Source: Escherichia coli (GTDB lineage: Bacteria > Pseudomonadota > Gammaproteobacteria > Enterobacterales > Enterobacteriaceae). From it: a DNA stretch of 64,000 bases. The position numbers are program-made. Position 1 is the first letter of the stretch. Each line of letters opens with the position of its first letter. Positions 45,301-48,300 of this stretch are shown here, one piece after another. Location of the stretch: NCBI RefSeq assembly GCF_030013595.1, contig NZ_CP122768.1; one strand, 5' to 3'.

Positions 45301-48300
45301 TCTGCCTGTGGATCAGGAAAGCGCACAGATTCTTTCTACCCCAATGCAGCAGCCCCAGCCGCGCAGATACAGCAACAAACGAACTGACAGCAGTAAGATG
45401 GAGCGTTTCTTTTGAACAACCAGACAACACCTTTTACCCCTGAACAATTACGTAAACAGGCACAGGAAATGTTGCGACAGGCGGAACAACTGGAAAAAAC
45501 AGGTGTAACAAAAGATGCCATTCGTCGGGATATGGTGCCAGCGCTCAGGGAACTGATGCAGGCGAAACACCGCGCACAAAAAGCGGTGGATGAGCTGGTG
45601 GATTGTGTGGCAGAGCTGGAAACCAGAGTTGGAAAGTTTGAAAAACTGGTGCAGGAGGTGCTGCGCTGATGCGTGATATTCAGATGGTTCTTGAGCGTTG
45701 GGGGGCATGGGTGGCAAATAATCATGAGGATGTCACCTGGTCATCGATTGCAGCCGGATTCAAGGGACTTATTCCTTCAAAGGTTAAATCGCGACCGCAA
45801 TGTAGTGATGATGACGCAATGGTTATTTGTGGGTGTATGGCTCGTTTGAAAAAGAACAACAGTGATTTGCATGATTTGCTGGTAGATTATTATGTGGCTG
45901 GTATGACGTTTATGGCACTGGCCCGTAAGCATCATTGTTCTGATGGATATATAGGAAAAAAACTTCAGAAGGCTGAAGGAATAGTCGACGGAATGTTGAT
46001 GGCACTGGATGTTCGTCTCGAGATGGATCTTGAAGTTGTTAGATGTTATTGATTAACGTTTGCTGGTAAAATTGAATAAAAAAGGGGACGCAAAAACGCC
46101 CCCAAGAGTTTAGAGTAATAAATAACAGAAGGTTAAAAAGAAAAGACAAAATGTCTTTCTTAATGCAGTGACGTGAGGGCGTCACCCACATGTTGTGGGA
46201 GATAAATATCTCCCACAACATATCTTTTTTAATAAAAAGATTTAGAACTGGTAAACCATACCGACAGCAACAATATCGTCGGTGTTTATACCAAGACCTC
46301 TGGTGAAATCATTTTTGTCAAGCAGGTTGATTTTGTAATCAACGAAAGTAGACATATTTTTGTTGAAGTAATAGGTTGCGCCTACATCAACATATTTAAC
46401 TAAGTCTTGATCGTCCCATACTCCGAGATCTTTACCTTTAGATTGCAGGTAAGCCACGGACGGACGCAGCCCAAAATCGAACTGATATTGTGCAACAGCC
46501 TCAACGTTCTGAGCTTTATTAGCGACGAAGCGATCAGCAAATACCGTCATATTCTGGGTTTCAGAATAGGTAGTGGCCAAGTAAATGTTGTTAGCGTCAT
46601 ATTTCAGACCAGCGGCCCAAACTTCTGCATTTTTACCGGAAGCAAATACTCCAGGAAGAACTTTCCCTAGATTAACTTGAGTGTCGGTACGGTCAGATTT
46701 CGCATAAGTTGCACCAATACCGAATCCTTCGTATTCATAGGTAGCAGAGAAACCGAAGCCATCACCGTTACCTTCGGTATAGTTATCGAGCTTGCTACGA
46801 TCGTTTTTGCCTTGGTACTGAGCAGCAAAGTTCAGACCATCAACCAGACCGAAGAAGTCGTTATTACGGTAAGTTGCAACACCAGTTGCACGCTGAGTCA
46901 TGAATACGTCGGTTTGAGTCCAGGTATCACCACCGAATTCTGGCAAAACGTCAGTCCACGCACCGATGTCGTATGCTACACCGTAGTTACGGCCATAATC
47001 GATGGAGCCGTAGTCACCGAATTTCAGGCCAGCGAATGCAAGGCGAGTTTTATCCCCGGAAGAACCTTGAGATTCAGCACGGTTGCCTTTGAATTCATAT
47101 TCCCACTGACCGAAACCAGTCAGTTGATCATTGATTTGGGTTTCGCCTTTGAAGCCCAGACGAGCATAAGTTTTGTCACCATCGTGTTTATCGTTAGAGG
47201 AGAAGTAGTGCTTGGCATTAACTTTTCCGTACAGATCCAGTTTGTTGCTGTCTTTGTTATAAATCTCTGCTGCTTGAGCAGACATCGCCATTAATACTGA
47301 CGCAGCTACAGCAGAGATTGCCACTGTTAATTTTTTCATCGTGAATCCTTAGTCCTTTTCGGAACTATTATTAAAAAATATTGTCACTGCGGCCTAAATA
47401 TACATCTAATCGGTATGGCTATTTCAAGATATGGAGTTTATTTAATGGTTCAAAGTGTGATCAAGATCTCGTTTATGCGTACTGGTAATTATTGACGATG
47501 TTTTTGTAATGAGAGATGCGCTTCTGAAATGTAATGAAAAGTTATTGTTTTTGTATTTTATAATGTAAATTCGTGCTGGTTTACGTACGTAAAAATTTAA
47601 ATATGATGTTAAGAGTGGTCACTTTGCCACACAGCTTAAACCAGCCGCCAAACGGGGTTTTTTATGCCCGAAAAGCGGCGCAGTACGTTAAACGCGCTGG
47701 TGGTTGCGAATACCGGTCTTTCAGCTTGCTGGCTTTTTCGACAAGAGTTATTGGTATGTCACGTTAACCGGAATAAGGGAAAAAGACATGCTAAAACAGC
47801 AGGATATGACCGAAACCGCCAGAGTGGTGTTTAATGAATTAAGCGTCACCGAGCCGGCGACCGTCGGGGAAATTGCGCAGAATACGTACCTTTCACGCGA
47901 ACGTTGCCAGTTAATACTGACCCAGCTTGTTATGGCAGGTCTGGCTGATTATCAGTTCGGTTGTTACAGACGCCTTCCGCAGTGAAGGCTTTTTAATTTG
48001 TGGTAATGGGCGGCTGGTGGGTGTTAGCGGCACCTGCCAGCCATCTGCTCATGCGTTGGGGTCACAAGCAAACCTCAGGCCCATCTGCTTTGCGCAAAAG
48101 CGGTATGAGCCTATCAGAGAAGTGCTTATTGATCTATGACTAATACTGTAAAAATATCCAGTTGTGAGTTAATCAACGCTGATTGCCTGGAATTTATCCA
48201 GACCTTACCGGAAAATTCTGTCGATCTGATAGTCACAGACCCGCCATACTTTAAAGTGAAGCCCGAGGGCTGGGATAACCAGTGGAAGGGCGACGATGAT

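What the first reader, a model, noticed from the sequence alone, without database searches (positions are those of the whole stretch)
46040..46230. Late-region control signals downstream of Q: candidate PR'/qut and a perfect 15-bp-arm palindrome terminator
Directly after the Q stop there is a possible promoter (TAAAAT -10-like hexamer ~46067), a small GC hairpin (GGGGACG…CGCCCCC), then two stem-loops, the second being the perfect palindrome ATGTTGTGGGAGATA/TATCTCCCACAACAT followed by a T-run. The layout matches the PR'-qut-tR' arrangement in which Q-modified polymerase reads through tR'. It also lies between convergent Q and porin genes and may terminate both.
Basis: partly seen in the sequence, partly recalled or inferred. 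Interest (0 to 1): 0.4.

Follow-up and report, generated by a model that had tools for sequence, protein, structure and literature searches.

The report
Phage porin 3' tail, not late promoter
The hairpin-rich spacer after the prophage Q gene is not the late promoter but the untranslated tail of the neighbouring phage porin gene, a variant of the known IpeX small RNA region with a terminator at each end; the real Q-controlled late promoter lies 1.5 kb further right.

Summary
The hairpins are real and far beyond chance. The perfect 15-nt-arm palindrome is the longest short-loop inverted repeat in the window. The promoter reading fails: TAAAAT has no -35 partner, is not conserved, and sits in the A-tract beside the U-tract (minus strand) of a terminator.

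The 189-bp Q-porin spacer is a diverged allele (72-78% identity) of the DLP12/PA-2 spacer, described as the ipeX small-RNA region in the porin transcript's 3' end. Four hairpins persist in 34 distinct variants, with compensatory changes. The first (46084-46103) terminates the porin strand. The palindrome plus T6 (46190-46230) probably terminates rightward transcription from Q.

The spacer travels with the porin, not with Q: present in 24/24 loci with porin, absent in 10/10 with the same Q subtype but no porin.

The cassette best read as PR'/Q-binding site/tR' is at 47578-47665. One relative has it 32 nt after Q; elsewhere unrelated inserted genes separate them. Its palindrome variant co-varies perfectly with Q subtype.

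In passing: the invariant unpaired stretch of the tail RNA is antisense to the ompC and ompF ribosome-binding sites, although reviews say IpeX acts without base pairing.

Verdict: ordinary, a new member of a known kind.

The parts
45669..46052 (+). Q antiterminator gene (127 aa), Q21 family
   Evidence: Pfam PF06530, E 5.8e-54. Matches the solved phage 21 Q structures 6p18/6jnx, E 1.9e-9. PF06530 is the Q21 family (PMC9388147).
46067..46072 (+).
   Evidence: No -35 at 16-18 nt and no scan hit. Not conserved among alleles. It sits 6 nt upstream of the A6 run (46078-46083), which on the minus strand is the U-tract after the terminator hairpin, in the AT-rich stretch just beyond it.
46078..46103 (-). 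Hairpin 1 (46084-46103) plus T6 on the minus strand (46078-46083): intrinsic terminator of the porin / IpeX-like transcript
   Evidence: The scan calls GGGGGCGTTTTTGCGTCCCC + TTTTTTATTC a minus-strand terminator with 8 pairs, 6 of them G-C. Stem and minus-strand T-run are kept in all 34 distinct alleles. The plus strand has an A.C mismatch and no T-run.
46104..46141 (-). Unpaired stretch of the porin 3' UTR RNA with an invariant core (RNA AACCUUCUGUUA); candidate seed antisense to the ompC and ompF ribosome-binding sites
   Evidence: Invariant columns in 34 alleles. Unpaired in the minimum-energy folds. 15 contiguous pairs with K-12 ompC at -19..-5 (window 46122-46136). 16 contiguous pairs with ompF at -13..+2 (window 46112-46127). 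Duplex energies -22.4 and -18.6 kcal/mol are matched by 2/500 and 8/500 dinucleotide shuffles. The phage porin's own leader is at random level.
46142..46158 (-). Hairpin 2 (AAAGACA/TGTCTTT)
   Evidence: The DLP12-type allele has a different stem sequence at the same place (TTAGAAGCA/TGCTTCTAA), so the structure is kept without the sequence.
46167..46186 (-). Hairpin 3 (GTGACG-loop-CGTCAC) with an invariant loop (CCCUCA on the porin strand)
   Evidence: Three of its pairs have changes on both sides that keep pairing: G-C to A-U, U-A to G-C, C-G to U-A.
46190..46230 (+). Hairpin 4: perfect 15-nt-arm palindrome (46190-46221) plus T6 (46225-46230). Probable intrinsic terminator for rightward transcription leaving Q. 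On the porin strand it is the first hairpin of the 3' UTR, with no T-run after it.
   Evidence: The scan calls it a plus-strand terminator with 14 pairs. Arms are 100% complementary. It is the longest such repeat in the window. The stem is kept with compensatory changes, and the plus-strand T-run is 4-6 T in most alleles.
46242..47339 (-). Phage porin gene (365 aa, Lc/NmpC type)
   Evidence: Pfam PF00267, E 1.7e-154. 96.5% identical to the first 347 aa of DLP12 NmpC.
47578..47665 (+). The inferred late control cassette. It contains palindrome TACGTACGTA (47582-47591) followed by an A5 run, -35-like TTTACG (47580-47585), hexamer TATGAT (47602-47607), invariant TTAAGAGTGGT (47609-47619), and a weak hairpin (47643-47659) with T6 (47658-47663).
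   Evidence: Promoter scan hit TTTACG-16-TATGAT. An 18-nt core is invariant while both flanks diverge. Found upstream of late or stx genes after unrelated inserted genes in SfII, Stx2a_WGPS2, mEp460, POCJ13, Stx1 phages and a Klebsiella phage. Lies 32 nt after Q in L114. The palindrome variant co-varies with Q subtype, 34/34 and 31/31. The motif is unique in the window. Its layout parallels the annotated phage 21 PR'.
47788..47985 (+). First ORF of the late transcription unit (65 aa, no Pfam family), followed by a terminator-like hairpin at 47972-47989 plus T-run
   Evidence: ORFs of the same size sit at the same place in Stx2a_WGPS2 and phiP27.

Best explanation
The 189-bp spacer (46053-46241) belongs to an inserted gene block (a 'moron') made of a porin gene and its 3' tail. 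This block sits between Q and Q's own target site.

Read on the minus strand, the spacer is the 3' untranslated region of the phage porin mRNA. It is a diverged allele of the DLP12/PA-2 region described as ipeX. It has four hairpins and ends at an intrinsic terminator (hairpin 46084-46103 plus U6).

Read on the plus strand, the perfect palindrome plus T6 (46190-46230) stops transcription that leaves Q without antitermination factors. The two terminators are interleaved, so the Q-sense and porin-sense RNAs would overlap by about 150 nt.

Between hairpins 2 and 1, the porin-strand RNA carries an invariant unpaired stretch. This stretch is an inverted copy of the host ompC leader. It most likely pairs with the ompC and ompF ribosome-binding sites, so that lysogens swap host porins for the phage porin.

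Q does not act here. Its loading site, promoter and terminator are at 47578-47665, just before the late genes.

Shown here: the anatomy, homology, conservation, linkage to the porin, the position and co-variation of the cassette, and the complementarity. Inferred: actual termination at either hairpin, expression and processing of the tail RNA, repression of OmpC/OmpF by pairing, and Q binding to the palindrome.
For: Homology to the DLP12/PA-2 spacer:
- 36 phage records match at 71-74% identity over 81-90% of the spacer, E 2e-14 to 1e-9, including PA-2 J02580 and 434B, which carries DLP12 DNA.
- The K-12 spacer is 100% identical to the PA-2 sequence 3' of lc.
- Literature: ipeX is a 167-nt DLP12 RNA made from the porin promoter as part of the porin transcript, and it lowers OmpC and OmpF (PMC12197685; PMC5069750; PMC8065619).

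Conservation: 79 loci give 34 distinct spacers of 187-192 nt, all with four hairpins. Five pairs change on both sides and stay paired. Hairpin 2 is replaced by a different stem at the same place.

Linkage: the spacer is present in 24/24 loci with this Q type plus porin. It is absent in 10/10 loci with this Q type and no porin, and in 31/31 with the other Q subtype.

True cassette.

Seed complementarity.
Against: - No transcript data are available for this allele.
- The original ipeX paper is not held. The exact ipeX end points rest on secondary sources and on my memory of its abstract.
- RefSeq K-12 does not annotate ipeX in this copy, and Rfam has no matching family.
- Folding energies and G-U counts do not say which strand's RNA is under selection: 17 of 34 alleles favour each strand.
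- The plus-strand T-run after the palindrome shrinks to 4 T or TTGTT in some alleles, so termination of Q-sense RNA may be weak or incidental.
- Held reviews state that IpeX does not act by base pairing (PMC3617542), which conflicts with the pairing model.
- In the cassette, the -10/start/pause register is unresolved, and this window's tR' stem is weak.
Confidence: 0.8

Rival explanations
1. A late promoter PR' with its qut site lies just after Q (around 46060-46120). The palindrome is tR', which Q-modified polymerase reads through, then continuing antisense across the porin gene into the late genes.
For: The position immediately after Q matches the canonical layout in phage 21 and in L114. 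TGgTAAAAT at 46064-46072 resembles an extended -10. TAGAGT at 46110-46115 is -10-like. The palindrome plus T6 is a good plus-strand terminator.
Against: No -35 and no scan hit. The hexamer and its TG are not conserved even in the closest alleles. The CGTACG palindrome that co-varies with Q subtype is absent here and occurs once in the window, at 47582. The spacer is absent from phages with the same Q but no porin. A complete cassette exists at 47578-47665.
Confidence: 0.03
2. The spacer is only a pair of convergent terminators plus mRNA-stabilising hairpins. It has no trans-acting RNA function in this allele.
For: Terminator polarity is clear. This allele is only 72-78% identical to the characterised ipeX. 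It has lost the 9-bp helix that the DLP12 allele forms with ompC -32..-24.
Against: Twelve unpaired bases are invariant across alleles that differ elsewhere by over 20%. They sit opposite the ompC Shine-Dalgarno sequence, and the adjacent bases sit opposite the ompF one, at levels matched by 2/500 and 8/500 shuffles. Termination would need two hairpins, not four conserved ones.
Confidence: 0.12
3. The functional RNA is the plus-strand one. The structured 3' end of the Q mRNA would act as a stability element for Q, or as an antisense partner that destroys the porin/IpeX RNA during lytic growth.
For: The plus strand folds almost as well (z -6.0). Half of the alleles fold slightly better on the plus strand. 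The palindrome terminator would put all four hairpins into Q-sense RNA.
Against: The spacer is absent when the porin is absent, although Q is the same. Published ipeX activity is assigned to the porin transcript (PMC12197685).
Confidence: 0.05

Closest known systems
ipeX region of cryptic prophage DLP12 (qsr') and phage PA-2: the 3' untranslated end of the nmpC/lc porin transcript
   Same: Same position, between the porin stop codon and the Q stop codon, on the porin strand. Same length (189 nt). Same four-hairpin layout, same terminator, and the same invariant unpaired core.
   Different: Only 72-78% identical. Hairpin 2 has an unrelated stem sequence. Hairpin 4 is a perfect 15-nt-arm palindrome here, against a bulged 14-15-bp stem there. 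The flank of the unpaired core differs, which loses a 9-bp helix with ompC -32..-24 and gains an uninterrupted 16-bp match to the ompF start region. This allele was found in only 14 of 5,426 complete E. coli genomes.
Phage 21 PR'-QBE-SDPE-tR' cassette (annotated in OL657228; structures 6p18/6jnx)
   Same: The window's Q belongs to the same protein family. The block at 47578-47665 has the same order of parts: promoter, protein-binding repeat next to a -10-type hexamer, TAWGMT hexamer, hairpin, U-run. Its predicted leader is similarly short, about 50-60 nt.
   Different: That cassette is not in the finding's coordinates. The binding element is a palindrome (TACGTACGTA + A5), not a direct repeat of TGAGCA. 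It is separated from Q by 1,525 bp of inserted genes instead of 6 bp.
MicF and MicC antisense small RNAs of the ompF and ompC leaders
   Same: The predicted mode of action is an unpaired stretch complementary to the Shine-Dalgarno region of a host porin mRNA.
   Different: This RNA is made as the 3' end of a protein-coding mRNA carried by a phage. One stretch covers both ompC and ompF. Base pairing has not been shown, and held reviews deny it.

Membership tests
Q-dependent late control cassette (PR'/qut/tR'), applied to 46040-46230 | A sigma-70 promoter (-35 and -10 at 16-18 nt spacing) reading toward the late genes | tested here: not met
   No scan hit in the spacer. TAAAAT has no -35, and the hexamer varies among close alleles.
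Q-dependent late control cassette (PR'/qut/tR'), applied to 46040-46230 | A Q-binding element specific to the resident Q, co-varying with Q type | tested here: not met
   The Q-subtype-linked palindrome occurs once in the window, at 47582, and not in the spacer. No TGAGCA repeats are visible in the sequence.
Q-dependent late control cassette (PR'/qut/tR'), applied to 46040-46230 | Linkage to the Q gene across genomes | tested here: not met
   The spacer is absent in 10/10 loci with the same Q subtype but no porin, and present in 24/24 with porin.
Q-dependent late control cassette (PR'/qut/tR'), applied to 46040-46230 | An intrinsic terminator on the late-gene strand, downstream of the promoter | tested here: inconclusive
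   The palindrome plus T6 is a good plus-strand terminator, but no promoter precedes it inside the spacer.
Q-dependent late control cassette (Q21 family), applied to 47578-47665 | Promoter, Q-linked binding element, -10-like pause hexamer and terminator in that order, directly upstream of late genes | tested here: met
   The register of the -10, start site and pause element is unresolved. Q binding and read-through are not testable here.
ipeX-type porin 3' UTR RNA | Lies immediately 3' of a phage lc/nmpC-type porin ORF on the same strand and ends at a Rho-independent terminator | tested here: met
   Porin stop at 46242-46244 and minus-strand terminator at 46078-46103. The distance from stop codon to U-tract is about 165 nt, against the published 167 nt.
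ipeX-type porin 3' UTR RNA | Sequence homology to the DLP12/PA-2 ipeX region | tested here: met
   71-74% identity over 81-90% of the spacer, E down to 2e-14. K-12 equals PA-2 at 100%.
ipeX-type porin 3' UTR RNA | Made as part of the porin transcript and processed to a small RNA | not testable with these tools
   Needs Northern blots or RNA-seq. Stated for DLP12/PA-2 in PMC12197685.
ipeX-type porin 3' UTR RNA | Lowers OmpC and OmpF after transcription | not testable with these tools
   Only complementarity to both ribosome-binding sites could be computed.

The most novel reading that the evidence does not exclude
IpeX-type porin tails act by ordinary antisense pairing. Their invariant unpaired stretch is an inverted copy of the host ompC leader. 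In the DLP12/PA-2 allele it forms 27 of 31 possible pairs over ompC -32..-2. In the window allele it forms 15 contiguous pairs with ompC, and an adjacent, overlapping stretch forms 16 contiguous pairs with the ompF start region. If this holds, the long-standing statement that IpeX works without base pairing is wrong. It would also mean that different prophage alleles are tuned to different host porins.
Probability: 0.5. Interest if true: 0.5.

Novelty: new member of a known kind. Interest (0 to 1): 0.3.

Why it matters
For annotation, it corrects where late-gene control sits in this widespread prophage type. In Q21-family phages with the short Q, the Q target can lie up to 3 kb from Q, behind inserted genes. 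'Right after Q' is therefore not a safe rule, including for Shiga-toxin phages whose toxin genes follow the same cassette.

For biology, the spacer is a second, diverged allele of a phage RNA that remodels host porins. The computed match to the ompC and ompF ribosome-binding sites gives a directly testable mechanism for an RNA whose mode of action has been called unusual since 2006.

Tried and rejected
- **Rfam** (E-value mode, 45900-48200): only a sub-threshold IsrM match at 20 bits against a gathering score of 376. I treated it as chance.
- **RefSeq K-12 annotation:** no ipeX feature.
- **Original ipeX paper:** not held under its DOI or PMC id, so I used secondary sources.
- **Which strand's RNA is selected:** tested with whole-spacer folding energies and G-U counts in 34 alleles. 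There was no bias, 17 against 17. RNAalifold showed more G-U cells on the porin strand (16 against 3), but these are few independent events.
- **Published DLP12 lysis-promoter primers:** the forward primer ('-121') maps inside the 5' end of nmpC. That implies a different start site about 350 nt upstream of the cassette, which does not bear on PR'.
- **Full-length duplex folding of the tail RNA against ompC/ompF:** gave meaningless end-to-end duplexes. I replaced it with a contiguous-pairing scan and with folding of the unpaired segment only.
- **Stx-phage PR' comparative paper (PMC6266700):** holds no sequence for this Q type.
- **Minus-strand 60-aa ORF at 46039-46221:** rejected as a gene. 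Alleles differ by frame-breaking indels (spacer lengths 187-192).
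Full report
**1. What is in the sequence**

The window carries a lambdoid prophage.
- 45669-46052 (+) encodes a 127-aa Q antiterminator of the Q21 family. It matches Pfam PF06530 at E 5.8e-54 and the solved phage 21 Q at E 1.9e-9. PF06530 is the Q21 family according to PMC9388147.
- 46242-47339 (-) encodes a 365-aa porin (PF00267).
- The two genes converge on a 189-bp spacer, 46053-46241.

The spacer holds four hairpins.
- Hairpin 1: 46084-46103, GGGGACG/CGCCCCC.
- Hairpin 2: 46142-46158, AAAGACA/TGTCTTT.
- Hairpin 3: 46168-46185, GTGACG-tgaggg-CGTCAC.
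- Hairpin 4: 46190-46221, perfect 15-nt arms 2 nt apart, followed by ATC and T6 at 46225-46230.

The structure is not chance.
- Folding z-scores are -8.8 (minus strand) and -6.0 (plus strand). None of 200 shuffles folds as well.
- Hairpin 4 is the longest perfect short-loop inverted repeat in the 64-kb window.

**2. Polarity of the two terminator-like hairpins**

Hairpin 1 has its T-run on the minus strand (GGGGGCGTTTTTGCGTCCCC then TTTTTTATTC). On the plus strand it has an A.C mismatch and no T-run. The scan lists it as a minus-strand terminator.

Hairpin 4 has its T-run on the plus strand and none on the minus strand. The scan lists it as a plus-strand terminator.

The two terminators are therefore interleaved. 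Porin-sense RNA would cross hairpins 4, 3 and 2 and stop at hairpin 1. Q-sense RNA would cross hairpins 1, 2 and 3 and stop at hairpin 4. The overlap would be about 150 nt. Actual termination is inferred, not shown.

**3. The promoter proposal fails**

- TAAAAT (46067-46072) has no -35 partner at 16-18 nt, and the scan reports nothing in the spacer. Over 45500-48400 it finds 4 promoter-like sites against 5.6 expected.
- Among the four closest alleles the hexamer reads TAAAAT, CAAAAT and CAAAGT, and the upstream TG is also lost. In the DLP12-type alleles the whole left end differs.
- The A6 run just downstream of it (46078-46083) is the complement of the U-tract of the minus-strand terminator.

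**4. What the spacer is**

The same Q-porin module occurs in many phage records and in DLP12 of E. coli K-12, as quuD-nmpC.
- The spacer matches 36 phage records at 71-74% identity over 81-90% of its length, E 2e-14 to 1e-9. These include PA-2 (J02580) and phage 434B, which carries DLP12 DNA.
- The K-12 spacer is 100% identical to the PA-2 sequence 3' of lc.

The literature describes ipeX as follows.
- It is a 167-nt RNA of DLP12, also assigned to PA-2.
- It is made from the porin promoter as part of the porin transcript, and processed from it.
- It lowers OmpC and OmpF (PMC12197685; PMC5069750; PMC8065619; PMC3617542).

From my memory of the abstract of the original paper (Castillo-Keller et al. 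2006, not held), ipeX lies between the nmpC stop codon and its predicted Rho-independent terminator. Here, the distance from the porin stop codon to the end of the minus-strand U-tract is about 165 nt. The finding's coordinates are therefore almost coextensive with an ipeX homologue.

The window's allele is rare. It was found in 14 of 5,426 complete E. coli genomes and in 4 variants among viral contigs.

**5. Conservation**

Seventy-nine related loci give 34 distinct spacers of 187-192 nt. All keep four hairpins at the same places.

RNAalifold recovers hairpins 4, 3 and 1. Five of their pairs change on both sides and stay paired. The loop of hairpin 3 is invariant. Hairpin 2 has an unrelated stem sequence in the two clades (AAAGACA/TGTCTTT against TTAGAAGCA/TGCTTCTAA).

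I could not tell from the sequences which strand's RNA is under selection.
- Minimum free energies favour each strand in 17 of 34 alleles.
- G-U counts in the folds show no bias.
- In the alignment, G-U cells are more frequent on the porin strand (16 against 3), but these are few independent events.
- For the window's own allele the porin strand is more stable (-58.5 against -53.4 kcal/mol).

**6. Linkage decides between Q and porin**

I took 80 viral contigs that carry the downstream cassette (section 7). The four-hairpin spacer is present in 24/24 that have this Q subtype and a porin. It is absent in 10/10 with the same Q subtype but no porin, and in 31/31 with the other Q subtype. The spacer belongs to the porin gene, not to Q.

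**7. Where the late control cassette is**

The cassette lies 1,525 bp right of the Q stop codon, at 47578-47665:

GGTTTACGTACGTAAAAATTTAAATATGATGTTAAGAGTGGTCACTTTGCCACACAGCTTAAACCAGCCGCCAAACGGGGTTTTTT

Evidence that this is the cassette:
- The promoter scan hits TTTACG-16-TATGAT here.
- Across the related loci the 18-nt core GGTTTACGTACGTAAAAA is invariant while both flanks diverge completely.
- The motif occurs once in the window.
- The block sits directly upstream of late genes or stx genes in phages where quite different genes lie between Q and the block. Examples are nmpC in DLP12/434B, two or three reverse-strand ORFs in SfII, Stx2a_WGPS2, Stx1 phages and a Klebsiella phage, and forward ORFs in POCJ13, 7888 and mEp460.
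- In 65 of the 80 contigs a Q21-family Q lies 32-3,000 nt upstream. The other 15 mostly lack upstream sequence.
- The palindrome variant co-varies perfectly with Q subtype. TTTACGTACGTAAAAA goes with the window-type Q (34/34), and ACGCGTACGCAAAAA goes with the SfII-type Q (31/31). The two Q subtypes are 45% identical.
- In contig L114 a Q 89% identical to the window's is followed after only 32 nt by the block. This is the canonical arrangement, as annotated for phage 21: Q stop, then -35, QBE, -10, start, SDPE and terminator within 90 nt.

The porin with its tail is thus an insertion between Q and Q's target.

The exact register inside the cassette is unresolved. There are two readings.
- Reading A: -35 TTTACG, -10 TATGAT, start near 47613.
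- Reading B: TATGAT/TATGCT aligns with the phage 21 pause element TAAGCT. This would make AAAAAT the -10 and put the start near 47601.

The window's tR' stem is weaker than the DLP12 one. A second terminator-like hairpin lies at 47972-47989.

**8. How the tail RNA may work (noticed while checking)**

The stretch between hairpins 2 and 1 is unpaired in the folds. Its core is invariant across the 34 alleles (RNA AACCUUCUGUUA).

- In the window allele, UUAACCUUCUGUUAU pairs contiguously with K-12 ompC -19..-5, which covers the Shine-Dalgarno sequence.
- In the window allele, UGUUAUUUAUUACUCU pairs contiguously with ompF -13..+2.
- Folding only the unpaired segment against each leader gives -22.4 kcal/mol for ompC (2/500 dinucleotide shuffles as good) and -18.6 kcal/mol for ompF (8/500).
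- The DLP12/PA-2 allele gives -26.7 kcal/mol for ompC (1/500), with helices of 9, 15 and 3 bp over -32..-2.
- The phage porin's own leader is at random level (253/500 and 413/500).

Put another way, the plus strand of the spacer carries a copy of the ompC leader: AAATAAAGG...ATATAACAGA(A/G)GGTT.

This suggests ordinary antisense repression of the host porins that spares the phage porin. Held reviews say IpeX does not act by base pairing, or not by complementarity alone. I found no held paper that reports this match, but I could not read the original paper.

**9. Verdict**

The hairpins are real. The promoter/qut reading is wrong. The palindrome may well be a terminator for Q-sense RNA, but it is not tR'.

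The element is a new allele of a known phage porin 3' tail (ipeX region) with interleaved convergent terminators. Interest is low to modest. Any added value lies in two points: the relocation of the Q target behind inserted genes, and the testable pairing with ompC and ompF.

Noticed in passing
window 46104-46141 (minus-strand RNA); also L002 1841-2029: The invariant unpaired stretch of the porin tail RNA is antisense to the ompC and ompF ribosome-binding sites. In the window allele it forms 15 and 16 contiguous pairs. In the DLP12/PA-2 allele it forms 27 pairs over ompC -32..-2. The plus strand therefore carries an inverted copy of the ompC leader. Held reviews say IpeX acts without base pairing.
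   Followed up: partly
window 47582-47595; loci L098-L177: The presumed Q-binding element of short Q21-family proteins is a palindrome followed by A5, not the direct TGAGCA repeat of phage 21. Its outer bases co-vary perfectly with Q subtype: TACGTACGTA against GCGTACGC. phiP27 has GGAATTCC at the same place.
   Followed up: partly
loci L084-L092, L097, L109, L123 against window 46053-47577: The gap between Q and its target cassette is a hot spot for unrelated inserted genes, from 32 nt to about 3 kb. Inserts include porin, reverse-strand ORF pairs or triplets, a DnaD_N-domain ORF and a T5orf172-domain ORF. In several phages stx1 or stx2 genes follow the cassette.
   Followed up: partly
window 47641-47663 and 47972-47997: This window's tR' hairpin is degenerate (6 pairs with a bulge) compared with DLP12's clean 8-bp stem. 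A second terminator-like hairpin, GCCTTC-CGCAGT-GAAGGC plus T5, follows the 65-aa ORF.
   Followed up: partly
window 42851-43177 (-): An IS-type transposase helix-turn-helix ORF (PF01527) lies just left of the prophage replication genes. Those genes are a DnaC/IstB-like ORF at 43269-44027 and a DnaB-like helicase ending at 45415. No nin-region genes lie between the helicase and Q, only an 85-aa ORF with no family (45412-45669).
   Followed up: no
window 49443-49517 (+): A tRNA-Gly (anticodon TCC) lies downstream of the DNA methylase gene (48136-49182) in the late region.
   Followed up: no
L002 4254-4273 (K-12 DLP12): The published '-121' primer for the DLP12 lysis-operon promoter maps inside the 5' end of nmpC. 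This implies a reported start site about 350 nt upstream of the conserved cassette, so a second, non-Q promoter may feed the DLP12 lysis genes.
   Followed up: no
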